Position numbers and translations under genes: made by a program. The notes below the pieces were generated by a model. That model ran no database searches and was not told the DNA's origin. It saw nothing but the letters and a program-made list of their open reading frames with translations. Shown here in pieces: positions 1,769 to 58,290 of a stretch of DNA of 64,000 nt. The stretch comes from Deltaproteobacteria bacterium. GTDB taxonomy: Bacteria > Desulfobacterota > Dissulfuribacteria > Dissulfuribacterales > UBA3076. Each line of letters opens with the position of its first letter. Positions within the stretch are counted from its first letter, which is position 1. Location of the stretch: contig PQXD01000003.1 in assembly GCA_003194485.1 (NCBI GenBank), positions 33,067 to 97,066 of the forward strand, in the 5' to 3' direction.

Positions 1769-2133
1769 GGTTTATGGATGAAAATAGAAATTAGAAATTG
1801 GACATTGGTTCTATACCCGGACAAGCCGGGACCAGACGTTTCCTTATTCCCATTTTTCTTATCTCCTTGTCAATGAGTAGCGTTACGGGCGAAAGAGGCT
1901 TATCCCCCTATTATTCTGTTGTTTTCCAACATAATCTATCTTTAATCACAGATATCAATACGAAAAAAGTACTAATTTTTTCGTATTTTTGCTTTTTTTT
2001 CGCCCTGCCTGATCTGTTTTGACGGGACAGAAAAGGCGCTATGAAGATGGAGGATTCCAGGTCTGTTTCCTGCTTGACAGCCAGGATTATGTGGTACACA
2101 CTTTTGTTAAACTTTGTACGCATAAGGAAGTAT

Positions 2134-7524: not shown

Positions 7525-7608
7525 TTGAAACTTGAAATTAGAAATTAGAACGAAACAAAAGCATGAAGGCCAAATTTCCAATTTCTATTTTCCAATTTCC
7601 AATCTCAA
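7525..7608. repeat. hairpin element built from inverted heptamer arrays (GAAATTA/GGAAATT)
   Basis: The left arm is TTGAAACTTGAAATTAGAAATTAGAA and the right arm is AATTTCCAATTTCTATTTTCCAATTTCCAATCTCAA. The loop GAAACAAAAGCATGAAGGCC is shared with the element at 35010-35095. Confidence 0.8.
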
Positions 7609-7719
7609 CCTTCCGTGAACGTTTACTCTGTCTATGTGCAGCACACAGGCGGTCCATGAAATTGAAACAGCACCGCAAATGAGGTATTATCAACAAAAGA
7701 TTGCGGTTATCTTGGTAAC

Positions 7720-18800: not shown

Positions 18801-19655
18801 CTAATCTTTCAGACTGACCAGGGCCTGACCGGGACCGTAGTCCAGTTCAACTTTAGCCACTTTTTTATATTTTCCTGAACTATAAAGTTGATACAGGACT
18901 TTTTCCGCCTTACTGAACTGAGAGTTGAGGTCTTCAGTATCAAAGTGAAAAGGAATACCGCTGTCAGCCGTATAGAGTATTAAGGTGTCTTTTCCGGCTA
19001 TGTGTATCTGGCTTATGTTATTGACACCCAGAGTTCTTGTACCTCTGCCTGCCATGGATATTAATTCCAGGGCCTTTTGGATCTGGTGATCTGGTGATTC
19101 GGTGATCTGGTGATTCTCTGTGTACTTCGGATCAATTCCTGTGATGATGGGAAGAGATACGGGCTCTTCCGCAGAAAGTAGTTCATCGATAATCTTACCC
19201 TGCTCATCAATCAAATAGATCTTGTCAGAATTCAATAGGGCTACCGGAGTGCGTTCTTTGATCGTGATCATCAAGTGGTCCGGCAGCTCTCTCTCAACTT
19301 CAACGGCATTGACCCAGGGATGCGCCTCTATGTTCGTTGCGATTGATTCCAGATCGAGAGACATGAGATTGTCCCGGGCGGTTACACCGCTGATCTGCAA
19401 AACCTCCTCTTCTGTGAGATGATTGCAGCCTTTCACCAGGACCTGGCCGACCCTGAAAAGTTCAGACCGACATACCCAATGCCAACACACAAAAAGGCCG
19501 GCAAGAACCAGGCATGCCGAGGCCATGGCGATCAACATTTTGGGATGGATAGACCACGATACCGGAAATATCAGACTGGTCCACGGGCCTGATCCATGCA
19601 TTGAAGACCTGAATTCTGTGGACGTCCTTCTGATCTTCATGTCTCCATACCCCAA
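18801..19655 (-). CDS. ftsQ: cell division protein FtsQ
   Basis: Single TM segment plus POTRA/FtsQ domains, positioned between murB and ftsA. It contains an in-frame octamer array (19081-19116). Confidence 0.8.
   Translation of the reverse strand: MGYGDMKIRRTSTEFRSSMHGSGPWTSLIFPVSWSIHPKMLIAMASACLVLAGLFVCWHWVCRSELFRVGQVLVKGCNHLTEEEVLQISGVTARDNLMSLDLESIATNIEAHPWVNAVEVERELPDHLMITIKERTPVALLNSDKIYLIDEQGKIIDELLSAEEPVSLPIITGIDPKYTENHQITESPDHQIQKALELISMAGRGTRTLGVNNISQIHIAGKDTLILYTADSGIPFHFDTEDLNSQFSKAEKVLYQLYSSGKYKKVAKVELDYGPGQALVSLKD
19081..19116. repeat. tandem octamer array (ATCTGGTG x4, one variant ATTCGGTG) inside ftsQ
   Basis: ATCTGGTGATCTGGTGATTCGGTGATCTGGTGATTC is read directly. It encodes ..NHQITESPDHQI.. 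Confidence 0.9.
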
Positions 19656-21926: not shown

Positions 21927-23115
21927 GACTATGCAGTGTAGAATCTTTCAATGAATTATTCCCTGCTTCAGAACATGAAAGACTATGGCAGGCCATCTTT
22001 ATCAGCGTGGCGGCTATTTCTGCGGCTGCCATGGGTCTTCCGAGTTTTCGAGCATTTTTCCCCATATTAGCGAGTTTTTCAGGATCCTCAAGCAAGGACT
22101 GTATCTCTCCTGCCAGTTTGACAGCACCTATTTCTCCCTCCCGGAAATATTTTGCAGCCCCGGCCACAGACAGTTCTCTGGCATTGGCCTCTTGATGCAT
22201 ATCTGTTGCCGATGGATAGGGAATCAGTATAGAGGGCCTTCCAAGGGCTGTGACCTCGGCCAGCGTACCTGCACCGGCCCGGCAGATAACCAGATCCGCC
22301 CAGGAATAGGATTCACCAATATCGGATATAAATGGAGTCACTCTGGCCGGAATGTCTGCGTCCTTGTAAAATTTCTCAATATCCGGCACATCCAGCTTAC
22401 CGGTTTGGTGGATAATTTCCACATGAAAACCGGATTGCCACAAGACCTGAATGGCCGAACAGACAAGCCGGTTCAGGCATCTGGCACCCTGACTTCCCCC
22501 CAGCACCAGGAGCCTGGAATCTGGTGATCTGGTGATCTGGTGATCTGGTGATTGAATAATGTCTTTCCGTATGGGATTTCCGGTGAAAATTACCCTGTTT
22601 TTTGGAAAGTATCTGGCAGTTTCCTTGAAGCTCACAAACACGGTCTTTGCAAATCTTGAGGCCAGACGGTTCGTGAGCCCGGGGATGAGATTCTGTTCAT
22701 GGATGGCAACGGATACCCGCAATATTCTTGCTGCAAGCAGCACGGGCCCGGAGACATATCCCCCTACACCCAATACCACATGAGGCCTGAATGATTTAAG
22801 CCACAAAAAGGCCCTGGCAGCGGAGGAGGGAAGCCCGGCCAGAGAGCATATGGTTCCTGCAAGGCCTGAGCCCCTGAGAGGTCTTGTACTCAGGATGCGA
22901 TAATCCCATTGACGCCCTGAGAGTGCATCTTTTTCCACCGGACGGCCCGTGCCTATCCACAAGACATCCACATGACCGTATATTTCCATGGCTTCAGCCA
23001 CGGCTATTCCCGGAAACACATGTCCTCCCGTACCACCACCGGCTACGACCAATTTGGTGGTTTGGTGATCCGGGTTGCGGATTACGGATTGCGGATTGCG
23101 GATTGCGATGTCCAT
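21919..23115 (-). CDS. murG: undecaprenyldiphospho-muramoylpentapeptide beta-N-acetylglucosaminyltransferase MurG
   Basis: VVAGGGTGGHVFPG and GGSQGA motifs. The ATG lies 4 nt after the murD stop. The gene carries two in-frame repeat arrays. Confidence 0.9.
   Translation of the reverse strand: MDIAIRNPQSVIRNPDHQTTKLVVAGGGTGGHVFPGIAVAEAMEIYGHVDVLWIGTGRPVEKDALSGRQWDYRILSTRPLRGSGLAGTICSLAGLPSSAARAFLWLKSFRPHVVLGVGGYVSGPVLLAARILRVSVAIHEQNLIPGLTNRLASRFAKTVFVSFKETARYFPKNRVIFTGNPIRKDIIQSPDHQITRSPDSRLLVLGGSQGARCLNRLVCSAIQVLWQSGFHVEIIHQTGKLDVPDIEKFYKDADIPARVTPFISDIGESYSWADLVICRAGAGTLAEVTALGRPSILIPYPSATDMHQEANARELSVAGAAKYFREGEIGAVKLAGEIQSLLEDPEKLANMGKNARKLGRPMAAAEIAATLIKMACHSLSCSEAGNNSLKDSTLHSHV
22519..22553. 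repeat. tandem octamer array (ATCTGGTG x4) inside murG
   Basis: The unit is the same as in ftsQ. It encodes IIQSPDHQITRSPDS at the inter-domain linker just before LVLGGSQGA. Confidence 0.9.
23072..23106. repeat. tandem heptamer array (GGATTGC-type x5) at the murG 5' end
   Basis: GGGTTGC GGATTAC GGATTGC GGATTGC GGATTGC encodes IAIRNPQSVIRNP immediately after the ATG. Confidence 0.9.
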
Positions 23116-23119
23116 TTAT

Positions 23120-24529
23120 TCAATCACCCAGTTCCAGGACTGCCTTCTGAAAGGCCATGCCCCGTTCTTCATAGTTCCTGAACATATCAAAGCTGGAACA
23201 GGCCGGGGAAAGGAGTACGGCATCACCCGGCTCGGCCAGGGACATAGCCTCTCTTACGGCTTTCTCCATGGTCTTTTTGCCGTCTTTTGTTCCGCGCACT
23301 TCGATAACCGGTATTACCTTGCTCAGGACCCTTTCAAATGCCCCGGCCTCCTCTCCCATGACAACCGCGCTGCGAATGCGTCCCCCTTTTGCAGTTTCTG
23401 CCAGTGATGAGTAATCTTCACCCTTGCCGCGGCCGCCGGCAATCAGCACTATTGGCTGCCCTATGGATTTAAGGGCACAGAGTACGGATGCCATATTGGT
23501 GGCCTTGGAGTCGTCATAATAGTCTATGCCTCCATATTGGGCCACCCACTGAAGCCTGTGGGGCGCGGCTTTGAAGCTGCGGACAACAGACTGCACGGCA
23601 CCTGCACCTGCACCTGCCAGACGTGAAATAAGTATGGCGCAAGCCAGGTTTTGAGCGTTGTGCAGGCCCTTCAGTGACCAGCCTTCCAGATCATATTCCT
23701 CACATTTATTATCATGCCACATGACGTTGATCTTTTTCAGGGATGTGTCCAGCACTGCTCCGGGAACCCCGGGGCGCAGTCCTCCGAAGCAGAGCCTTCT
23801 GGCACGCCCTCTGTTCTTCCACTTTTCCAGTTCCTTGTCGTCCATATTGCGGATGGCCCAATCTTCAGGCCACTGGAAATCGTATATTACTGCCTTGCTC
23901 TCTCCGTAACTTCTGATGTCCCGGTAGCGGTCAAGGTGATCCGGGGCAAGATTGAGCCATGCCGCTATCCTGAACCTTGGAGGACGGAAGGGGAAGTATT
24001 TGACCCTGGGGAAGTAATCCAACTGGAAGCTGCTGATTTCAAGAACCGCAATAGTTTCACCGGTGTGTCTTTCAATGAACATAGATAATGGCTGCCCGAT
24101 GTTCCCTGCCTTTACATGAGGCACACCGGCCTTTTCTAACATCTCATCCACGAGCATCGTGGTAGTGGTTTTCCCGTTTGTGCCGGTTATGCCGATTAAA
24201 GGCCCCTTCCAAAAAGATGCCGCAAGGGCCAGCTCCCCGACCACAGGTATATTGGACCTGCGTGCGGCCTCAAGGGCAGGGGTTTCATGCGGAACACCCG
24301 GGCTGACCACAATCAGATCGGATGAGAGGCAGGTCTCCACCTCATGTCTTTTCGTCTCCACCCTAACGCCGTTTTCGTCACACCAGTCTGCCAGTCCCTC
24401 GGGCCACCTGTCCAGTGGATTCAAGTCGCTGCACGTGACTTGCGCCCCCTGGGAGACGATCCATCCGGCAGCCGCCTGTCCGGATACACCCATGCCCAGT
24501 ACTGTTACTTTCCTGCCTTTCAGTTCCAC
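23120..24529 (-). CDS. murD: UDP-N-acetylmuramoylalanine--D-glutamate ligase
   Basis: VLGMGVSGQAAA Rossmann N-terminus and the P-loop GITGTNGKTTTT. Confidence 0.93.
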   Translation of the reverse strand: MELKGRKVTVLGMGVSGQAAAGWIVSQGAQVTCSDLNPLDRWPEGLADWCDENGVRVETKRHEVETCLSSDLIVVSPGVPHETPALEAARRSNIPVVGELALAASFWKGPLIGITGTNGKTTTTMLVDEMLEKAGVPHVKAGNIGQPLSMFIERHTGETIAVLEISSFQLDYFPRVKYFPFRPPRFRIAAWLNLAPDHLDRYRDIRSYGESKAVIYDFQWPEDWAIRNMDDKELEKWKNRGRARRLCFGGLRPGVPGAVLDTSLKKINVMWHDNKCEEYDLEGWSLKGLHNAQNLACAILISRLAGAGAGAVQSVVRSFKAAPHRLQWVAQYGGIDYYDDSKATNMASVLCALKSIGQPIVLIAGGRGKGEDYSSLAETAKGGRIRSAVVMGEEAGAFERVLSKVIPVIEVRGTKDGKKTMEKAVREAMSLAEPGDAVLLSPACSSFDMFRNYEERGMAFQKAVLELGD

Positions 24530-25647: not shown

Positions 25648-28600
25648 CTATCCTCCTCCCAGATGCCTGATAAGGGCATCTGCTGCCTTCTCAAGGCCTA
25701 CGGCCCGTGATCCCTTTACGAGTATAATTGCCGGGGAAGGCATGCAATCAAGAGCGTCTGATTCTATCCATGAAAGCAAATCCTCCGTGTCGGGGAAGAT
25801 GCGGATAGCCTCTTGCGAAATACCCGCCTTTTTTGCAGCCCCGGAAACAGTATCAGCAAACCGGCCTGCTGAAACTAAAAGATCAACCCCTGTTTGGGCT
25901 GCAAGCCGTCCGAGATCCTGATGAAACTTGCGAGCGGCATTGCCGAGTTCCAGCATGTCTCCCAGGATCGCTATCTTTTTCTCGCCCCTGCTCCAGAATT
26001 CGAGGGTCTCAAGGGCCGCTCTCGCAGAACCGGGATTTGCATTATAAGAATCGTCTATCAGCCTCCATCCGGATCCAAGATTCTTCAGAAACAGACGGCC
26101 CGGAACCGGTTTCACTTCCTCAAGCCCCTGCTTTATACTGACCGGCTTCAGCCCCACTGCATGGCCTGCAGCCGCGGCTGCAACGGCATTCTGCACGTTC
26201 GCCTTACCTATGAGGGAAAGATCGACAGAGAGCCTGCTTCCCGCGATATCCAGGTCCAGCAGAGTGCCATGCTCGACCGGGGTCCAGGACAGGCAAGTGA
26301 TTGCAGCTTTGAGCTTTGAGCTTTGAGCTTTGAGTTGGGGATTGGGTGTCAGAGAATAACCCACTATCCGGCACGTCAGATCTTTTGCCCCTTCAGTAAC
26401 CAGTGGGTCGTCAAGGTTCATCACTGCCACACCCGTCCGGGGAAGGGCTCTCCAGAGTCCCCATTTTTCTTCGGCCACTTCTTTTATGCCCCCCAGGCCG
26501 ACAAGATGGGCAGGCTGTATGGTAGTAATAAGGCCCGCTTGCGGCTGAGCGATTTCGCACAGCCGGGATATCTCTCCGGGCCGGTTCGTTCCCATCTCCA
26601 GCATTACCCAGGAGTCATCGGTTTTGGCCGAAAGCAGGCTGAGGGGAAGTCCGATAAGGTTGTTGAAATTCCCCGGGGTCTTAGCCACTTTCCATTTCTT
26701 CCCCAGGATCGAGGAAATCAGTTCTTTTGTTGTGGTCTTGCCGCAACTACCTGTAATGCCGATCACCTTGATTCCGAGGTATTCCCTGTACCATGATGCG
26801 AAGTCTCCCAGGCTCTTCAAGGTATCCTGAACTTTCAACAGGACCGGACGGGATCGAGGGCTGAAAGCCGAAAGTCCAGGGTCAGGAATCGAACTGACTA
26901 CGGCACCAACGGCGCCTTTTCTTATGGCTTCGAGGACAAAGTCATGGCCGTTGAAGCGGTCCCCTGGAAGCGCCCAGAATATATTCCCTGTTCTCACCGA
27001 TCTGGAATCTGTTGATACGCCATGGATTGATATGTCAGGATCACCCGAAAGGACTCGGGCTCCAATGGCCTTTGCCACCTGGGAGGCCTTTAATCGAAAT
27101 CCCTGATCCTCAAGAACCTCTACTTTTGACTCTTGTCTTTTATTCCCTGAACCCTGAACCCTGAACCCTGAACCCTGAACCCTGCCTTTTGACCCAAAGG
27201 CCTCTTTCAATACCTCTCTATCGTCAAAGGCAAATCGCCCGCTGCCGATTATCTGGCATGTTTCGTGGCCCTTCCCTGCCACCAGCAGGCAGGCGCCGGG
27301 GCGCGCTCTTTCCGCCGCCCATGATATGGCGTCCCTCCTGTCCGGAATTACCTTCACTTTTGCTCTGTTTGCAGGATGATGAGGCGGAAGGTCCCTGAGG
27401 CCGTTCAACATCTGCTCGAGTATGGCAAGAGGGTCTTCAGTGCGGGGATTGTCAGAGGTCAGCACAACAATATCCGCGAGTGAAGCCGCTGCCTGCGCCA
27501 TAAGAGGACGCTTACTCCGGTCCCTGTCCCCACCGCAGCCGACTACGCAAATCACGGGCCTGAATCCTAATGTAACAAGGCTGTTCAGGACACATTCAAG
27601 GGCATCAGGTGTGTGAGCATAATCTACAAAAGCAGTCACTCCATTGGGAGTGCACACAGGATCGAGTCTCCCCGGAATGCGCGTCACTGATTCTATACCG
27701 GCCTGAATATGGTCCGTATCTATCCCGAGGGCGATTGAAGCCGCTACTGCTGCAAGGATGTTATAGAGATTATAGGAACCCGTAAGCCTGGATCTGAAAG
27801 AAACAGGCCCTCTGGGCGTGACAAGCCTGCCTGTTATTCCATCAATATTGATGGACTGCGACTCAGGCCTCACCTCGGCCTCAGGACTGAGACCATAACT
27901 GATCTTTTCTTTTTGCAGAATCTCCCACAGTCGCCTTCCATGGAGGTCATCAATATTAATAATTGCCGCACCAGAGGGATGCTCCAAAAACAGTTTTGCC
28001 TTAGCCCGGAAATATCGTTCCATGTCTTGGTGATAATCCAGGTGATCGCGGCCCAGATTGGTAAAGACAGATGCGGCGAAACTGCACCCGGAGATCCTTC
28101 GCTGGTCAATGGCATGAGAAGATACCTCCAAGGCCGCCGCTTTTACTCCTTGTTCCAGCATATCTGCCAGAATCTTTTGCAGTCTTACGGCATCCGGGGT
28201 GGTGAGTTCGGAAGGTACCTCCACACCTCCATGTCTCCTGTTTATAGTCCCTATTACACCAGGGTTCAGTCCGGCTTTGCTGAAGATTCCTTCCATGAGA
28301 TATGTGATCGTGGTCTTACCATTAGTGCCCGTAACGGCTACGAGGTCCATTTTTTCACTGGGGTTTCCATAAAAGGCACTTGCCAGGAGGCCGGTTGAGA
28401 GCCTGGGATCGTCAACCCCTATAACAGGAAGTGTTCCAGGTACGGATTCGATATAATAACGTCGGGCGTCCTGGCCCGGCACTAACAGGACAGCGGCTCC
28501 TTTCTCTACGGCATCACTGATAAATTGTCTTCCGTCAAATTCAGTGCCTGGAATTGCCGCGAATACGTATCCCTGCTTCACCTGCCTGGAGTCTGCGGAT

Positions 28601-28725
28601 ATGCCCGTGATTTTTACGTCATCAAGGTCCGATGGAGAAAAAACGGTGGGCCTAACAGGTCTGAGCACTCCCAACATATCCCGTAATGCCCTTTCGTTCT
28701 GCATGTTATTAGACATCACTTGCAC
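25648..28725 (-). CDS. murE-murF: fused MurE (meso-DAP-adding ligase) and MurF (D-Ala-D-Ala-adding ligase), 1025 aa
   Basis: Two complete Mur-ligase modules with P-loops VAVTGTNGKTT (N-terminal half) and ITGSCGKTTT (C-terminal half). They are joined by the linker GRVQGSGFRVQGSGNKRQESKVEVLEDQG. Confidence 0.9.
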   Translation of the reverse strand: MQVMSNNMQNERALRDMLGVLRPVRPTVFSPSDLDDVKITGISADSRQVKQGYVFAAIPGTEFDGRQFISDAVEKGAAVLLVPGQDARRYYIESVPGTLPVIGVDDPRLSTGLLASAFYGNPSEKMDLVAVTGTNGKTTITYLMEGIFSKAGLNPGVIGTINRRHGGVEVPSELTTPDAVRLQKILADMLEQGVKAAALEVSSHAIDQRRISGCSFAASVFTNLGRDHLDYHQDMERYFRAKAKLFLEHPSGAAIINIDDLHGRRLWEILQKEKISYGLSPEAEVRPESQSINIDGITGRLVTPRGPVSFRSRLTGSYNLYNILAAVAASIALGIDTDHIQAGIESVTRIPGRLDPVCTPNGVTAFVDYAHTPDALECVLNSLVTLGFRPVICVVGCGGDRDRSKRPLMAQAAASLADIVVLTSDNPRTEDPLAILEQMLNGLRDLPPHHPANRAKVKVIPDRRDAISWAAERARPGACLLVAGKGHETCQIIGSGRFAFDDREVLKEAFGSKGRVQGSGFRVQGSGNKRQESKVEVLEDQGFRLKASQVAKAIGARVLSGDPDISIHGVSTDSRSVRTGNIFWALPGDRFNGHDFVLEAIRKGAVGAVVSSIPDPGLSAFSPRSRPVLLKVQDTLKSLGDFASWYREYLGIKVIGITGSCGKTTTKELISSILGKKWKVAKTPGNFNNLIGLPLSLLSAKTDDSWVMLEMGTNRPGEISRLCEIAQPQAGLITTIQPAHLVGLGGIKEVAEEKWGLWRALPRTGVAVMNLDDPLVTEGAKDLTCRIVGYSLTPNPQLKAQSSKLKAAITCLSWTPVEHGTLLDLDIAGSRLSVDLSLIGKANVQNAVAAAAAGHAVGLKPVSIKQGLEEVKPVPGRLFLKNLGSGWRLIDDSYNANPGSARAALETLEFWSRGEKKIAILGDMLELGNAARKFHQDLGRLAAQTGVDLLVSAGRFADTVSGAAKKAGISQEAIRIFPDTEDLLSWIESDALDCMPSPAIILVKGSRAVGLEKAADALIRHLGGG
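26305..26339. repeat. tandem heptamer array (AGCTTTG x4 plus one degenerate unit) inside the MurF module
   Basis: AGCTTTGAGCTTTGAGCTTTGAGCTTTGAGTTGGG encodes PQLKAQSSKLKAA. Confidence 0.9.
27145..27184. repeat. tandem heptamer array (CCCTGAA x5.5) forming the murE-murF junction
   Basis: CCCTGAACCCTGAACCCTGAACCCTGAACCCTGAACCCTG encodes RVQGSGFRVQGSG on the minus strand. The same heptamer occurs intergenically at 50373-50397. Confidence 0.9.
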
Positions 28726-38843: not shown

Positions 38844-40685
38844 TTGCAGGATGGTCTCCGGACACTGAAAGTACTCCAAGAAAAGAAAGGCCAAAAAGTG
38901 CCTGATATTCGGGAAATCACCTGGGTGTCAGAGACGGGTTCTACCAATGACCTTGCCAGAGAGAATTTTCAAAAAAGAGGGATTCTGTGGCGCTGTTTTG
39001 TTGCCGGCTCCCAGACCAGGGGCAGGGGTAGGAAAGGCCGGAACTGGATTTCTCCTCCCGGCACCGGCCTGTATCTGTCGATTGCTGTGCCAAGGCCCGG
39101 AATTCTGGAGGCCTGGCTCCCTCTAACCTGCGCCATTGCCTCATCGGCCGCCATACAATCCATTCTCACCAGGTCCCGCTGTGCCAGGCCGCCTTCTATT
39201 AAAATAAAATGGCCCAACGACCTGTATATTGAAAATGGAAAGTTGGCAGGTATGCTTTGCGAACTGGCAGACGGATCCGAAAGTCCTGCCTGGATAATCG
39301 GAATAGGCATAAACATTTGCACTCCGAAAAATGCCTTCCCGGAACATCTCAGGGAAAAGGCGTGTTCCATATCAAGCGCTACGGGTTGCCGGGTCTCCCG
39401 AGACTCCCTGCTTGAAGAACTGCTCGTTCATCTCTCTTTCTGGCTGGGAAAGATATATGAAGGCAATGTCTCGGCTATTTTGAATTTTATTGAAAAAACA
39501 GAAATAATGGGCATAATTCAGGGATCAGAAACCGGGCGGATCTCCAGCCACAGGCCCGCACAGCCTGACACAGGCGACCAGATCGCTGAATCAAGGATAA
39601 TACCGCAGATGCAGACAGATATCCGCAGGCTACAATCGTCAAATCGTCAAATCGTCAAATCGTCAAATCGTCAAATCGTCAAATCGTCAAATCCGCTGGG
39701 TATCACCATGGGCTGTCCGGCGGGAATCGGTCCTGAAATCATTATAAAGGCATTCGCTGCCAATCCTGAATGGCTGCTTTCACCTCCGGCAGTGGTCATA
39801 GGGGACATGAATATACTTAAAAAGGCATCAAGGGCGCTTGATATCGACATTCCCCTTAAGTCCTGGGTGCCTGGAGATCCCATTTCCGGCAGTGCGATAC
39901 ATGTGATTACACGGACAGACCTTAATGCCGAGGATATCCTTTGGGGAAAGCCGAACCCAGTCACTGGAAAGGCCTCTTTCGAGTATGTCACTGAGGGCAT
40001 CAGACTCTGCCTGGGAAAAAGTCTCTCCGGCCTTGTGACCGGCCCTATCAGTAAACTGGGCCTCAGGCTTGCCGGCATCTCCTACCCCGGACATACCGAG
40101 ATATTGGCCGACAGGACCAACACGGAAAGATATGCAATGATGCTGGCAGGCGACAGGCTCAGGGTAGCCCTTGTGACCATACACTGCCCCTTGAGGGAGG
40201 TGGCGGACAGCATCAGCACGGAAAAGATTTTTCAAGTAATTTTCCTTACGGATTCCTTCTTAAGAAATGAACTCGGCATAAAAGAGCCGGAGATTGCCGT
40301 GGCCGCACTGAATCCACATGGAGGCGAGTCCGGGATGTTTGGCAAAGAAGAAGAGCATATCATATCGCCCGCTATAGAAATGGCCCGGGGAAAGGGTATA
40401 GCGGCCAATGGGCCTTATCCTCCTGACACAGTGTTTTATCAGGCTGTCAATGGGAAATTCGACGCTGTAGTCTGCCAGTATCATGACCAGGGGCTGATTC
40501 CCTTTAAGCTCATTCATTTCAGAGACGGGGTCAACCTGACCTTAGGCCTTCCGATAACCAGGACTTCAGTAGATCACGGGACTGCATATGACATCGCCGG
40601 TACCGGAAAGGCGGATTGTGCCAGTCTTGAGGCGGCAATCAGACTCGCATCGAAGATAGTGGAAAAGAGAAAAGAAGGTCCATAA
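38844..40685 (+). CDS. birA-pdxA: fused biotin--protein ligase-like (BirA catalytic domain) and 4-hydroxythreonine-4-phosphate dehydrogenase (PdxA), 613 aa
   Basis: The N-terminal part has VSETGSTNDLA...AGSQTRGRGRKGRNWISPPGTGLYLS (BPL motifs). From ITMGCPAGIGPEII to the end is a complete PdxA. The junction reads QSSNRQIVKSSNRQIVKSSNP. Confidence 0.8.
   Translation: MQDGLRTLKVLQEKKGQKVPDIREITWVSETGSTNDLARENFQKRGILWRCFVAGSQTRGRGRKGRNWISPPGTGLYLSIAVPRPGILEAWLPLTCAIASSAAIQSILTRSRCARPPSIKIKWPNDLYIENGKLAGMLCELADGSESPAWIIGIGINICTPKNAFPEHLREKACSISSATGCRVSRDSLLEELLVHLSFWLGKIYEGNVSAILNFIEKTEIMGIIQGSETGRISSHRPAQPDTGDQIAESRIIPQMQTDIRRLQSSNRQIVKSSNRQIVKSSNPLGITMGCPAGIGPEIIIKAFAANPEWLLSPPAVVIGDMNILKKASRALDIDIPLKSWVPGDPISGSAIHVITRTDLNAEDILWGKPNPVTGKASFEYVTEGIRLCLGKSLSGLVTGPISKLGLRLAGISYPGHTEILADRTNTERYAMMLAGDRLRVALVTIHCPLREVADSISTEKIFQVIFLTDSFLRNELGIKEPEIAVAALNPHGGESGMFGKEEEHIISPAIEMARGKGIAANGPYPPDTVFYQAVNGKFDAVVCQYHDQGLIPFKLIHFRDGVNLTLGLPITRTSVDHGTAYDIAGTGKADCASLEAAIRLASKIVEKRKEGP
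39633..39694. repeat. tandem octamer array (CAAATCGT x6 plus partial units) at the birA-pdxA junction
   Basis: CAATCGT(CAAATCGT)x6 CAAATCC is read directly. Three units equal 24 nt and give the 8-aa peptide period SSNRQIVK. Confidence 0.95.
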
Positions 40686-41472: not shown

Positions 41473-41548
41473 TGGCGGTCCCAAGGGGAATCGAACCCCT
41501 GTTTCTGGCGTGAGAGGCCAGCGTCCTAGACCCCTAGACGATGGGACC
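41473..41548 (-). tRNA. tRNA-Glu (anticodon CUC), CCA encoded
   Basis: The minus strand reads GGTCCCATCGTCTAGGGGTCTAGGACGCTGGCCTCTCACGCCAGAAACAGGGGTTCGATTCCCCTTGGGACCGCCA. The acceptor stem is GGTCCCA/TGGGACC, the anticodon loop is CUCUCAC, and the T-arm is GGGGTTCGATTCCCC. Confidence 0.9.
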
Positions 41549-46145: not shown

Positions 46146-48053
46146 CTAATTTTGACCCTCAAGGGTATTCAATTTCTTATTAAGCCGGCAGAGAACTGTG
46201 CGGACCTGTCTGGATCCTCCGCCCAACGCCTCGGCCTGTCGTCCGAGCTTTACTGCTGTTTCCCGGTCATGTGTCTCTTCAAGGTAGCCAAGGGCCAGAA
46301 GTGCCATGGACTCCGAATCTTCATGGTTATTTTTTATGGCCTGCTGCCAGGCCGTCTTGGCGTCCTGCCATCGATTAAGGATCCTGTAAGCCTTGCCGAG
46401 TATTCGGAAGATGGCCCCTGGTACCGGTTGGCCAGGTTTGTCTACAAAAGGACTGAGAACATCCAGGGCCTCTTTTGCCCGGTTTGATTCAATGAGCACT
46501 TCGGCCATACGGCCTGCCAAGCGCAGATCGCCCGGTTTCAGTGCATAGGCCCTTTTCAGGGCCTTTTCAGCGCTTCCGAGATCTCCTCTCTGGAAATAGA
46601 TGCCACCAAGGTTATAAAGGGCCATAAAATTTTCAGGAGCGGAATTTACGGCCCTGGAAAAGGCATCAATGGCCTCCTTCGTCCTTCCCAGTTCTGCAAG
46701 ACAAACTCCCAGGCTATTAAGCAGATTGGTGTTTGAGGGCTCGATCTTGAGACCACGCCTGTAGCTCCTGCAGGCACCTGGCAGATCTCCCCAGGAAAGG
46801 ATTTCGTCTCCCCTGACGTTCCAGGTCAAGCTGTCATGGATGGCCACTGAACCGTTCCCCAACATATCCGCATGCATAAAGGCCCACAGGGCCGCCACCG
46901 GTGCCCGAGATGGACCTGCTGCAGGCTGATAGCTGGCAGCAATGCCTATGGTTGATGGCGTACTCTGGGCAGCAGTGCATAGTCTCTGTATCTCATTACC
47001 CCACCGGATCAGGTCAGGTTCCCGGCTCTTTTTGCCAAATTTTCTGATCAAAAAGGCATTATCCCTTCCCCCCGAAATAAATACTCCATCCGGTCCCAAG
47101 ACATCTTTAAGATCATGGGGTGCAGGTCTAACATAAGCAACGGCACATTTTGAGCTGCCCTTGACGGCCTTTTTTACCTGATCAAGCCTTGATCTGAGCC
47201 CTTCAAGACCCAGTCGGTCTTCAAGAGCTTTTAAATCACTTGTGCAAAAAATTGCAGTACCCAGTTCCTCAGCCAACCTTTCAAGACCGTGGATATCCTC
47301 CCTTACCTGACTGATATCAAAAGGCTCTGAGACAAAGTGACCATAAGCTTTCGATATCAGTATCCTCATTGTCCGGGCCTTTGAAATCAACCGCCCGAGG
47401 CCGAAAGAGAGTTTTTTTTCGTCTGCCCCGGGCAGAAGTATCCAGAACTCCCCTGGATTTCCCCCCAGCCATTCAGGATCAGAATGTCTCCAGAGCATCG
47501 AGCACAGTTCAATCACACTTTCAGGACTGCAGTAATCGGCATTTGCACGGGGCCTTTGCAAGAGATGCAGCAAGGAGGCTGAAGACTTCTCTTTTTTATA
47601 AATAGCTTCCAAAGTAAGACTTACATATGGAGGAATTTCCCCTGGCCTTGAAAAAGAGGACTTCAATCGCAGGATCTCGAGTCTATTTTCTACCCAGGAC
47701 TGCAGAACAGGAAGCCACCTTTCAGCTTCTTCCGGTCCGATGGAGTTTTCTACTCTAAATAACACCAGAGTGCCGAGGGTAGTTTGTTGCTTGGTGGTGG
47801 CTGATCGGTCTCTTATGGGGATCAGGACCTGCTGTCCTATCCGGTCCCAAAACCCCTTTAATTCAGACAGGGCCTGAGAGGCCCTCTGTCTCTGGCGCTC
47901 TGAAAGTTTGGCTGGCGGAAGGCCGTCAACATGGTCAGAAATGGGGCAGAATATCCATTCTGAAAAGGAAAAAATTTCACCAAGCAATTTAATGACCCGG
48001 TCACCCAGCCGTTCAAGGTCTGCTGGGACCAGGCGAAATACAGGATCAGTCAT
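46146..48053 (-). CDS. TPR-repeat protein with an unrecognised N-terminal domain of about 400 aa
   Basis: The C-terminal part of about 230 aa holds several 34-aa TPR units (e.g. ALYNLGGIYFQRGDLGSAEKALKRAYALKP). The N-terminal part matches nothing I can name. Confidence 0.6.
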   Translation of the reverse strand: MTDPVFRLVPADLERLGDRVIKLLGEIFSFSEWIFCPISDHVDGLPPAKLSERQRQRASQALSELKGFWDRIGQQVLIPIRDRSATTKQQTTLGTLVLFRVENSIGPEEAERWLPVLQSWVENRLEILRLKSSFSRPGEIPPYVSLTLEAIYKKEKSSASLLHLLQRPRANADYCSPESVIELCSMLWRHSDPEWLGGNPGEFWILLPGADEKKLSFGLGRLISKARTMRILISKAYGHFVSEPFDISQVREDIHGLERLAEELGTAIFCTSDLKALEDRLGLEGLRSRLDQVKKAVKGSSKCAVAYVRPAPHDLKDVLGPDGVFISGGRDNAFLIRKFGKKSREPDLIRWGNEIQRLCTAAQSTPSTIGIAASYQPAAGPSRAPVAALWAFMHADMLGNGSVAIHDSLTWNVRGDEILSWGDLPGACRSYRRGLKIEPSNTNLLNSLGVCLAELGRTKEAIDAFSRAVNSAPENFMALYNLGGIYFQRGDLGSAEKALKRAYALKPGDLRLAGRMAEVLIESNRAKEALDVLSPFVDKPGQPVPGAIFRILGKAYRILNRWQDAKTAWQQAIKNNHEDSESMALLALGYLEETHDRETAVKLGRQAEALGGGSRQVRTVLCRLNKKLNTLEGQN

Positions 48054-48076
48054 TTGTTAATATTATCCAAACTAAG

Positions 48077-48285
48077 CAATTAGCTATTAGCGGTTAGCTA
48101 TTAGCTATTAGCTATTAGCTTAATGATTACGGAATATTTTGCTATTACAAACTTTCACCCTGTTGAATGCAGCTTCGCTGCCCCCTTTGGGGATTCAACA
48201 GGGTGAACCCATTGGGTATTTCCTGTTTAACGTAATGCCCTGATTTTTCAAAGCTAAATGCTAATGACTAACAGCTAATCGCTCA
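48077..48285. repeat. nested palindromic intergenic element flanked by inverted TAGCTAT-type heptamer arrays
   Basis: The left array is AATTAGCTATTAGCGGTTAGCTATTAGCTATTAGCTATTAGC and the right array is AGCTAAATGCTAATGACTAACAGCTAATCGC. The central perfect 14-bp stem is TCACCCTGTTGAAT (48155-48168) / ATTCAACAGGGTGA (48193-48206). Confidence 0.8.
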
Positions 48286-58204: not shown

Positions 58205-58290
58205 GAAACTGGAAATTAGAAATTAGAAATTAGGTAATGAATCTACATCTTTGTGTTTTCCCCAATTTCCAATTTCCAGTTTCCAGTTTC
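58205..58290. repeat. heptamer-array hairpin element (lpxA-fabZ spacer)
   Basis: GAAACTGGAAATTAGAAATTAGAAATTAGG pairs with CCCCAATTTCCAATTTCCAGTTTCCAGTTTC. Confidence 0.8.

What the first reader, a model, noticed from the sequence alone, without database searches (positions are those of the whole stretch)
39633..39694. The birA-pdxA fusion junction is an octanucleotide tandem array
About seven units of CAAATCGT encode QSSNRQIVKSSNRQIVKSSNP between a BirA-like catalytic domain and a complete PdxA. The BirA C-terminal SH3-like region is not recognisable before the array. BirA and PdxA have no obvious functional link, so the fusion looks accidental and repeat-mediated. An 8-nt unit keeps the frame only in steps of three units, so slippage would uncouple PdxA.
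Basis: partly seen in the sequence, partly recalled or inferred. Interest (0 to 1): 0.6.

Follow-up and report, generated by a model that had tools for sequence, protein, structure and literature searches.

The report
In-frame octamer repeat in BirA-PdxA linker
A perfect 8-base tandem repeat really does sit between the BirA-like and PdxA halves of one gene, but the fusion is older than the repeat, and the repeat is one of many frame-preserving 7- and 8-base arrays that this lineage carries inside linkers of essential proteins.

Summary
Window 39634-39693 is a perfect 8-nt x 7.5 array (unit AATCGTCA = CAAATCGT rotated). It lies inside one 613-aa ORF (38844-40685) made of a BirA-type catalytic domain without the BirA C-terminal domain, a roughly 65-aa linker predicted to be disordered, and a complete PdxA.

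Distant relatives (45-60% identity, same pyrR neighbour) carry the fusion with a short, non-repetitive linker. About 15 closer relatives carry it too.

Within the clade (Dissulfuribacterales, probably Seep-SRB2) the array sits at the same site with other units (AATCACCA, AATCCCCA). Its length changes only in 24-nt (3-unit) quanta: the distance from the conserved ATG to Met289 is 51, 75 or 99 nt in 14 of 14 loci. No out-of-frame allele was found.

A conserved internal ATG (39609) serves as the pdxA start in relatives that lost or uncoupled the BirA part.

The array is not unique. Stop-free 7- and 8-nt arrays lie in frame in MurG, FtsQ and the MurE-MurF linker of this window. The same AATCGTCA unit also lies in PheT and in a pseudopilin leader of the same population.

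Best reading: a selection-filtered coding microsatellite in a tolerant linker. Why identical unit variants are shared between unlinked loci is unexplained.

The parts
38844..40685 (+). Single ORF of 613 aa: BirA-like domain, linker and PdxA. It is identical to NCBI PXF55528.1 (C4B57_02580).
38913..39500 (+). Biotin-protein-ligase catalytic domain (aa 24-219). The GRGRKGRNW and KWPND motifs are present. There is no C-terminal BPL_C domain and no N-terminal HTH.
   Evidence: TIGR00121 matches model positions 1-186 of 235. PF03099 is found but PF02237 is not. PDB 2eay_A aligns over residues 4-180 of 233. The motifs are visible in alignment A1.
39501..39695 (+). Inter-domain linker (aa 220-284), hypervariable in length among relatives and predicted to be disordered.
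   Evidence: AlphaFold2 pLDDT is below 50 for aa 216-281, with no secondary structure. The linker columns of alignment A1 are gapped and variable. Cluster members of more than 90% identity range from 565 to 581 aa.
39490..39517 (+). Sigma-70-like promoter match (TTGAAA, 16 nt, CATAAT; 10 of 12), about 90 nt upstream of the internal ATG. This is a consensus match only.
   Evidence: 6 sites found against 3.7 +/- 1.6 expected, so it is weak evidence
39593..39597 (+). AAGGA, a Shine-Dalgarno-like motif 11 nt upstream of the internal ATG. It is conserved as AGGA in 9 of 10 aligned loci.
39609..39611 (+). Conserved internal ATG (M256, MQTDIRRLQ...). It is the called pdxA start in relatives that lack or have uncoupled the BirA part.
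   Evidence: The ATG is invariant in alignment A2. P0020, P0021, P0136 and P0145 start here. In L202 and L203, in-frame stops lie upstream of it.
39634..39693 (+). Perfect octanucleotide array, (AATCGTCA) x 7.5, encoding (NRQIVKSS)n. It has no stop codon in any sense frame, while the reverse strand carries TGA in every unit.
39696..40658 (+). Complete PdxA domain (aa 285-605). The first beta-strand, LGIT (aa 285-288), follows the array directly.
   Evidence: TIGR00557 and PF04166. DSSP assigns a strand to aa 285-288.
39708..39710 (+). Met289 codon of the family motif ITMGCPAG. It is the only ATG, GTG or TTG available to pdxA if the array is out of frame. It is not a start in relatives, where L002 has ATA here.

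Best explanation
The array is a coding microsatellite inside a disordered linker of an old BirA-like-PdxA fusion gene. It did not create the fusion.

Shown:
- The fusion exists without any repeat in distant relatives.
- Within the Dissulfuribacterales / Seep-SRB2-like clade the linker lengthened. It acquired an octamer array at a fixed site just upstream of the first PdxA strand.
- The array's unit differs between lineages.
- The array's length differs only by multiples of three units (24 nt, 8 aa).

Inferred:
- The array grows and shrinks by slipped-strand mispairing.
- Single-unit changes put PdxA out of frame with both possible starts (the BirA start and the conserved internal ATG at 39609), and selection removes them. 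Only 3-unit states survive.
- The array is tolerated for two reasons. An 8-nt unit read in all three frames yields the same hydrophilic, stop-free octapeptide (NRQIVKSS). The array also sits in a segment with no folded structure.
- It is one instance of a lineage-wide habit. Stop-free 7- and 8-nt arrays colonise linkers, loops and leader peptides of housekeeping proteins. They turn over, decay by point mutation and are replaced.
- PdxA is probably made both as the fusion protein and on its own from M256.
For: Fusion older than the array:
- L010 ORF 3968-5635 (BPL 44% and PdxA 60% identical to the window protein) has the linker ...LKSIPLKSVPGPVLPLGITMG.
- L016 ORF 2811-4472 is also fused. Both lie downstream of a pyrR-like PRTase gene and have no period-8 tract.
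- P0001-P0015 carry both Pfam domains.

Same site, different units:
- AATCGTCA in the window and in L001, L112, L119 and L166.
- AATCACCA in L002, L003, L006, L007, L008 and L202.
- AATCCCCA in L009. The array is degenerate in L004 and reduced to about 1.5 units in L005.

Quantised length:
- L001 has flanks identical to the window but 36 nt of array instead of 60.
- The distance from ATG to M289 is 51, 75 or 99 nt, always in frame, in 14 of 14 loci.
- P0137 has 1.5 units and P0136 has 4.5.

Tolerant context:
- pLDDT is 25-31 across aa 220-280.
- All three frames give the same cyclic peptide.

Own start:
- The ATG is invariant, with a conserved AGGA upstream.
- pdxA is called from this ATG where BirA is absent (L002) or cut off by stop codons (L202 and L203).
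- L002 has no Met289 codon, so its translation must pass through the array.

Lineage-wide habit:
- In-frame arrays lie in the MurG linker and N-terminus, in FtsQ, in MurD, and in the MurE|MurF junction and a MurF loop of this window.
- The same AATCGTCA unit lies in frame in PheT, between its tRNA_bind and B3_4 domains, and in a pseudopilin leader of the same population.
- Relative L204 has AATCACCA at three dcw-cluster sites.
- Array density is 7 per 64 kb here. It is 0 per 90 kb in outgroup Desulfobacterota loci and 3 per 470 kb in unrelated loci.
Against: - No reads were available, so slippage and the loss of off-frame variants are inferred from assemblies only.
- The 14 loci are not independent. 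They represent perhaps 6-8 distinct array states.
- Gene callers and assemblers favour intact ORFs and consensus alleles, so minority off-frame variants would be invisible.
- Contigs often break or are scaffolded with Ns at this array (L087-L091, P0138). That is compatible with hidden length heterogeneity.
- Plain slippage does not explain why the same derived unit (AATCGTCA) occurs at three unlinked loci.
- Use of M256 as a start in this genome is not demonstrated. The spacing between the SD-like motif and the ATG is long (11 nt).
Confidence: 0.75

Rival explanations
1. The array is a contingency locus, that is, a phase-variation switch. Gain or loss of one unit reversibly turns PdxA off, and any coupling of BirA-like and PdxA activity with it. 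This would give mixed ON and OFF populations.
For: - The array is perfect: 7.5 identical units, implying recent turnover.
- It lies between both candidate start codons and the catalytic domain. This is the classic position for an SSR switch.
- The unit length is not a multiple of 3.
- Assemblies often break at it.
- The same unit sits in the leader of a pseudopilin, a typical class of phase-variable gene.
Against: - All 14 loci and all cluster members examined are in the ON frame, and lengths differ only by 24 nt.
- The suspected OFF alleles (325-aa PdxA calls) turned out to be unmerged scaffold overlaps, contigs joined through the array, or gene-caller choices on intact ORFs.
- Sister arrays lie in genes where an OFF state should be lethal: murG, murE-murF, ftsQ and pheT.
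Confidence: 0.13
2. One reading: two separate genes, birA and pdxA, were joined by accident when a repeat expanded across the intergenic gap and erased the birA stop codon and C-terminal domain.
For: - The BirA C-terminal domain is missing.
- PdxA begins right after the array.
- No functional link between the two enzymes is known, and a literature search found no paper on such a fusion.
Against: - Repeat-free fused orthologs exist in the same pyrR context and also lack the C-terminal domain.
- About 45 non-repetitive linker residues separate the catalytic domain from the array.
- In clade members L202 and L203, uncoupling is caused by an insertion carrying stop codons in the non-repetitive linker, not by the array.
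- The analogous MurE-MurF array also sits in a fusion that is widespread without it.
Confidence: 0.04
3. The 7.5-unit length, or the open frame, is an assembly artefact of this metagenome-assembled genome.
For: - Every other assembly of the same species shows 4.5 units (L001, L112, L119, L166, the left contig of L088, and the 587- and 578-aa cluster members).
- The array is a known trouble spot for assemblers.
Against: - A 60-nt array is shorter than a read.
- The flanks are identical to those of the 4.5-unit allele.
- A 99-nt state also exists in other lineages (L003, L202).
- An artefact would be in frame only one time in three.
Confidence: 0.05

Closest known systems
SSR contingency loci of Haemophilus, Neisseria and Mycoplasma (tetra- to heptanucleotide tracts in the 5' coding region; PMC2651432, PMC3315296)
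   Same: A perfect tandem tract whose unit is not a multiple of 3 lies between the start codon and the functional domain. Strains differ in unit number.
   Different: Only frame-preserving 3-unit alleles are seen. The gene is housekeeping (PLP synthesis), and sister arrays sit in essential cell-wall, division and tRNA-synthetase genes. The host is a free-living or syntrophic sediment bacterium, not a host-adapted pathogen.
Dispersed long-unit SSRs: GGGAATC and GGGGAYT heptamers of Xanthomonas and Nostoc (PMC4692102), TAACTGA repeats of Guaymas Beggiatoaceae (PMC4679880), and cyanobacterial STRR heptamers (my own knowledge)
   Same: Units of 7-8 nt recur at many loci of one genome. They are strongly over-represented and are lineage-specific.
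   Different: Those families are described as mainly intergenic; intragenic copies make up 7-11% in Xanthomonas. Here most arrays are in frame inside coding sequence, on the stop-free strand.
Intragenic in-frame tandem repeats that vary linker or surface-protein length (for example yeast adhesins and bacterial surface proteins; my own knowledge)
   Same: Length polymorphism of a repeat-encoded, unstructured protein segment without loss of function.
   Different: Those units are multiples of 3 nt. Here an 8-nt unit gives an 8-aa peptide period only through three-unit steps.
Known bifunctional fusions: MurE/MurF fusion protein (JGI product name) and BirA/type III pantothenate kinase (NCBIfam NF009862)
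   Same: Two enzymes are joined in one polypeptide. A BirA catalytic domain is fused to another cofactor-pathway enzyme.
   Different: A BirA-like-PdxA fusion has no name in the libraries used and no paper in the library searched. Its BirA part lacks the C-terminal domain, and it has been deleted or has degenerated in several lineages.

Membership tests
Phase-variable SSR contingency locus | Perfect simple-sequence tract within or just upstream of the coding region, with a unit length not divisible by 3 | tested here: met
   8 nt x 7.5, 100% identity, downstream of both candidate starts
Phase-variable SSR contingency locus | Natural alleles that include out-of-frame (OFF) unit numbers | tested here: not met
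   14 of 14 loci are in frame, at 51, 75 or 99 nt. The candidate OFF calls were explained otherwise. Read-level data were not available.
Phase-variable SSR contingency locus | The target is a dispensable or surface-exposed function | tested here: not met
   The target is PdxA (TIGR00557 equivalog). Sister arrays lie in murG, murE-murF, ftsQ and pheT.
Biotin protein ligase BirA (group I) | Catalytic domain with the GRGRxGRxW biotin loop and the KWPND lysine motif | tested here: met
   TIGR00121 scores 107.3 bits (cut-off 83.1), aa 24-219. The motifs GRGRKGRNW and KWPND are conserved in alignment A1.
Biotin protein ligase BirA (group I) | C-terminal SH3-like domain (PF02237 BPL_C) | tested here: not met
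   There is no PF02237 hit. TIGR00121 model positions 187-235 are unmatched. PDB 2eay_A aligns only to residue 180 of 233. The nearest free-standing BPLs (about 40% identity) do carry PF02237.
Biotin protein ligase BirA (group I) | Biotinylation activity | not testable with these tools
   This needs complementation of an E. coli birA mutant or an in vitro assay.
PdxA (4-hydroxythreonine-4-phosphate dehydrogenase) | Full-length match above the curated equivalog cut-off | tested here: met
   TIGR00557 scores 375.7 bits against a cut-off of 290.35, model positions 2-319 of 320. PF04166 E-value is 1e-104.
Dispersed long-unit SSR family (STRR or GGGAATC type) | The same 7-8-nt unit in tandem at several unlinked loci of one genome | tested here: met
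   AATCGTCA occurs at the pdxA, pseudopilin and pheT loci in the same sample sets. ATCTGGTG occurs twice in the window. AATCACCA occurs three times in L204.
Dispersed long-unit SSR family (STRR or GGGAATC type) | Predominantly intergenic location | tested here: not met
   Four of the 7 perfect arrays in the window are inside ORFs, and further near-perfect ones lie in FtsQ and MurD. All are in frame.

The most novel reading that the evidence does not exclude
The 7- and 8-nt arrays of this lineage may form an interacting, dispersed family rather than independent slippage products. Derived unit variants are shared by unlinked loci of one lineage: AATCGTCA at pdxA, pheT and a pseudopilin, and GATCACCA at murG and ftsQ. 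Relatives carry AATCACCA at pdxA, murF and two murG sites. This implies either ectopic gene conversion between arrays or a sequence-specific, templated process that installs and refreshes frame-neutral peptide spacers inside essential genes. The contigs that join the pseudopilin flank to pdxA through the array (L084-L086) could be a footprint of such exchange.
Probability: 0.25. Interest if true: 0.75.

Novelty: new variant of a known kind. Interest (0 to 1): 0.5.

Why it matters
For this gene, the result corrects an attractive but wrong story. The BirA-like-PdxA fusion is old and conserved. It also decays repeatedly, and the repeat is a later tenant of its linker.

More broadly, a group of sediment sulfate reducers (probably the Seep-SRB2 partners of methane-oxidising archaea) tolerates non-triplet microsatellites inside murG, murE-murF, ftsQ, pheT and pdxA. 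Alleles are quantised in three-unit steps.

That offers a natural system for two measurements: slippage rates against purifying selection in essential genes, and how protein linkers are made and remade.

It also has practical consequences. These arrays break assemblies and can create chimeric joins. Gene callers then start pdxA at an internal Met.

Tried and rejected
- An exact look-up of the window protein found nothing. The identical sequence P0124 / PXF55528.1 nevertheless turned up as a cluster member.
- I suspected that the 325- to 339-aa PdxA proteins starting at MGCPAG were OFF alleles. They are not.
  - L087, L089 and L091 are scaffolds with 100 Ns between two copies of the 4.5-unit array.
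  - The left contig of L088 already holds a complete array.
  - L090 is a contig that starts just after the array.
  - L201 and L006 have intact fused or extended ORFs that the gene caller shortened.
- L084-L086 lack FeoA and BirA. They join a type II secretion pseudopilin gene to pdxA through 3.6 units. I cannot tell whether this is a real recombinant or a chimera made through the shared array.
- A search with the BirA part alone did not return even the known fused homologs P0001-P0015. It therefore cannot be used to exclude truncated BirA-only alleles. It did show that the nearest free-standing BPLs (about 40% identity) keep the C-terminal domain.
- I looked in the other two frames for a hidden BirA C-terminal domain or a frameshift. 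Both frames are full of stop codons.
- Rfam finds only a tRNA in the window. The promoter scan is not above background.
- Literature searches for a BPL-PdxA fusion and for tandem repeats in Seep-SRB2 found nothing.
Full report
**1. What is there**

Window 39634-39693 is a perfect tandem array with period 8 and 7.5 copies (100% identity, TRF score 120). It is the strongest array in the 64-kb window.

The array lies in frame inside ORF 38844-40685 (+, 613 aa) and encodes aa 264-284, QSSNRQIVKSSNRQIVKSSNP.

Chance is excluded. Two hundred Markov simulations of the window never produced a perfect 7- or 8-nt array of 3 or more copies, against 7 observed. A two-unit 16-mer is expected 0.02 times.

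**2. The gene**

- The N-terminal part is a biotin-protein-ligase catalytic domain. PF03099 matches, and TIGR00121 matches aa 24-219 on model positions 1-186 of 235.
- The GRGRKGRNW and KWPND motifs are conserved among relatives.
- The C-terminal BPL_C domain is absent. There is no PF02237 hit, and the best solved relative (A. aeolicus BPL, 2eay_A) aligns only to residue 180 of 233.
- The other two frames hold only stop-rich sequence, so this is not a frameshifted domain.
- PdxA is complete. TIGR00557 scores 375.7 bits (cut-off 290.35) on model positions 2-319 of 320, starting at L285, the first codon after the array.
- An AlphaFold2 model built on 28 sequences gives pLDDT 25-31 and no secondary structure for aa 216-281. 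It places the first PdxA beta-strand at aa 285-288.

The array is thus the 3' end of a linker of about 65 aa that is predicted to be disordered.

**3. The fusion is older than the array**

- A protein search found 15 fused homologs at 58-97% identity that carry both Pfam domains.
- Among species-representative genomes, L010 (uncultured Desulfobacterales) has a 555-aa ORF. Its BPL part is 44% and its PdxA part 60% identical to the window protein, and its linker is ...LKSIPLKSVPGPVLPLGITMG.
- L016 has a 553-aa ORF whose BPL part has degenerated.
- Both lie downstream of fusA and a pyrR-like PRTase gene, and neither has any period-8 tract.
- The same PRTase neighbour is kept by clade members L002, L003, L201 and L202.

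The BirA part is also dispensable in evolution.
- L002, L003, L006, L007, L008 and L009 have lost the catalytic domain but keep the linker remnant, the array and PdxA.
- In L202 and L203 an insertion in the non-repetitive linker introduces two in-frame stops. BirA (232 aa) and pdxA are then separate genes.

**4. The array in relatives**

- The array sits at the same site throughout the clade, but its unit differs.
  - AATCGTCA in the window and in L001, L112, L119 and L166.
  - AATCACCA in L002, L003, L006, L007, L008 and L202.
  - AATCCCCA in L009.
  - A degenerate array in L004, and about 1.5 unit-like copies in L005.
- L001 is about 99% identical to the window, with identical flanks, but has 4.5 units instead of 7.5.
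- At least five other assemblies of this species also show 4.5 units. The 587- and 578-aa members of the protein cluster agree with this. The only 613-aa member is PXF55528.1, which is identical to the window protein.
- In a sister lineage, P0137 has 1.5 units and P0136 has 4.5.
- The distance from the conserved upstream ATG to the Met289 codon is 51, 75 or 99 nt in 14 of 14 loci. It is always in frame and always 51 + 24k.
- In the P0005 cluster (more than 90% identity, 565-581 aa) a heptamer array (CGCAACT) lies next to the octamer.

The linker is therefore a site of repeat turnover, but only frame-preserving states are seen.

**5. Translation starts**

- If the array is out of frame, no ATG, GTG or TTG precedes PdxA except Met289 of the family motif ITMGCPAG.
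- Met289 is not a start. L002 has ATA there, and starting at it would remove the first beta-strand.
- An ATG at 39609-39611 (M256, MQTDIRRLQ) is invariant in ten aligned loci. A conserved AGGA lies 11 nt upstream of it.
- This ATG is the called pdxA start where BirA is missing or uncoupled.
- A promoter-like match lies at 39490-39517, but the scan as a whole is not above background.

I infer that PdxA can be made both as a fusion and alone. In either case translation passes through the array. A one-unit slip would therefore silence PdxA, not merely uncouple it.

**6. Search for OFF alleles**

PdxA proteins of 325-339 aa that start at MGCPAG looked like candidates. None is a clean off-frame allele.
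- L087, L089 and L091 are scaffolds with Ns between two copies of the array.
- The left contig of L088 already holds a complete 4.5-unit array.
- L090 begins just after the array.
- L201 has an intact fused ORF that the gene caller shortened.
- L084-L086 join a pseudopilin gene's 3' flank to pdxA through 3.6 units. This is either an assembly chimera or a real exchange between arrays.

No clean off-frame allele was found, but read-level data were not available.

**7. The array is one of many**

The window carries the dcw cluster. In-frame arrays lie in these genes:

| Gene or site | Position in protein | Repeat |
|---|---|---|
| MurG inter-domain linker | aa 188-199, QSPDHQITRSPD | GATCACCA x 4.2 |
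| MurG N-terminus | aa 3-15 | CGCAATC x 5.3 |
| FtsQ | aa 180-192 | GATCACCA-like |
| MurD, between the middle and C-terminal domains | aa 305-311 | hexamer |
| MurE/MurF junction of the 1025-aa fusion | aa 514-527 | CAGGGTT x 5.7 |
| MurF loop | aa 798-807 | CTCAAAG x 4.3 |

- The MurE/MurF fusion is widespread and already has a product name. Distant homologs lack the repeat. Close ones have 7-aa-periodic linkers that differ by 7 aa. This is the same pattern as for BirA-PdxA.
- A metagenome scan for (AATCGTCA)3.5 found the same unit, on the sense strand and in frame, in two further genes in the same sample sets.
  - One is a pseudopilin leader, MTITKSSNRQIVKSSG|FTLIEVLVA.
  - The other is PheT, between its tRNA_bind and B3_4 domains.
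- A relative's dcw cluster (L204, about 80% aa identity) has AATCACCA at the MurF loop, the MurG N-terminus and the MurG linker.
- Array density is 7 per 64 kb here. It is 0 per 90 kb in outgroup Desulfobacterota loci and 3 per 470 kb in unrelated loci.

**8. Mechanism**

- A unit of 7 or 8 nt is coprime with 3. All three frames of an array therefore encode the same cyclic peptide (NRQIVKSS here).
- Such an array can enter a coding sequence in any phase, provided the unit is stop-free on that strand and the total added length is a multiple of 3.
- The reverse strand of this unit contains TGA, which fixes the array's orientation.
- I therefore read the pdxA array as a slippage-prone microsatellite filtered by purifying selection (confidence 0.75).
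- A true ON/OFF switch is possible but unsupported (0.13). The accidental-fusion idea (0.04) and an assembly artefact (0.05) are unlikely.

**9. What remains unexplained**

Derived unit variants are shared by unlinked loci within a lineage. AATCGTCA occurs at pdxA, pheT and the pseudopilin. GATCACCA occurs at murG and ftsQ. Relatives carry AATCACCA at pdxA, murF and murG.

Independent slippage does not predict this. Ectopic gene conversion between arrays, or a templated spreading process, would.

**10. Source and literature**

- Cluster members are labelled Dissulfuribacterales or Deltaproteobacteria MAGs from vent and seep samples.
- Seep-SRB2 is placed in the order Dissulfuribacterales, and a Guaymas G37 genome (PQXD00000000) is listed in PMC10553843.
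- That the window comes from that genome is my inference.
- Papers describe over-represented heptamer SSRs that are mainly intergenic (PMC4692102, PMC4679880).
- I found none on in-frame 7- or 8-nt arrays in essential genes, nor on a BirA-PdxA fusion.

Noticed in passing
window 25648-28725 (-), array at 27145-27184: A 1025-aa MurE-MurF fusion has a junction (aa 514-527, GRVQGSGFRVQGSG) formed by a perfect heptamer array, CAGGGTT x 5.7. The fusion itself is widespread and already named. Relatives have 7-aa-periodic linkers that differ by 7 aa, and distant homologs have no repeat.
   Followed up: yes
window 26305-26334 (MurF loop, aa 798-807); L204 4091-4131: At one MurF loop the window has CTCAAAG x 4.3 (LKAQSSKLKA). 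Some relatives have another heptamer (FKIQNSKFKIA). Others have the octamer AATCACCA (SSNHQITKSPNHQI), with degenerate copies in relatives of 68-72% identity. Different arrays thus succeed each other at one site.
   Followed up: partly
window 22519-22552 and 23071-23107 (MurG), 19080-19116 (FtsQ), 23598-23617 (MurD): In-frame arrays lie in essential division and cell-wall genes. GATCACCA x 4.2 is in the MurG inter-domain linker. CGCAATC x 5.3 is at the MurG N-terminus, next to an octamer remnant (DHQTTK). A GATCACCA/AATCACCG mixture is in an FtsQ loop. A GCAGGT hexamer lies between two MurD domains.
   Followed up: partly
L120, L129 and L169 (pseudopilin locus); L092, L098 and L150 (pheT): The same AATCGTCA unit occurs in frame at two other loci of the same population. 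One encodes a prepilin leader peptide that ends at the G|FTLIE cleavage site, with a GTG start overlapping the upstream stop codon. The other is a 15-aa insert in PheT before the B3_4 domain.
   Followed up: partly
L084, L085 and L086 (ENA k141 contigs of 9-45 kb): The 3' flank of a type II secretion pseudopilin gene is joined through 3.6 AATCGTCA units directly to pdxA, skipping FeoA and BirA. pdxA is out of frame with the GTG start there. This is either an assembly chimera through the shared array or a real recombination between arrays.
   Followed up: partly
window 48075-48120: An intergenic heptamer array (TAGCTAA-type, 6.6 copies) lies 20-70 nt upstream of the start of a TPR-protein gene (46146-48053, -) and downstream of selA. 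It could act as a promoter or 5'-UTR spacer.
   Followed up: no
window 1780-1799, 7534-7550 with 7573-7614, and 58212-58233 with 58262-58290: The heptamer GAATTA-type unit GAAATTA (2-3 copies) recurs at three intergenic sites. At two of them a nearby AATTTCC/CCAATTT array follows about 30-50 nt away. This may be a dispersed intergenic repeat element.
   Followed up: no
metagenome loci L093-L171: Many unrelated metagenomes (sludge, freshwater sediment, soil, seawater) hold mixed arrays of CAAATCGY, CAAATCAC and CAAATTGT octamers. The CAAATCNN octamer motif is therefore not confined to this clade.
   Followed up: no
L016 2811-4472: A distant fused homolog has a degenerated BirA-like half. The GRGRxGR loop and the KWPND motif are lost (HWPDG remains), at 23% identity. 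Yet it stays fused to an intact PdxA. This suggests the BirA half may have a non-catalytic role or be decaying.
   Followed up: no
window 41473-41548 (-): tRNA-Glu(CTC) lies between the methyltransferase-like gene and the MFS transporter gene. It is the only Rfam or ARAGORN hit in the window.
   Followed up: yes
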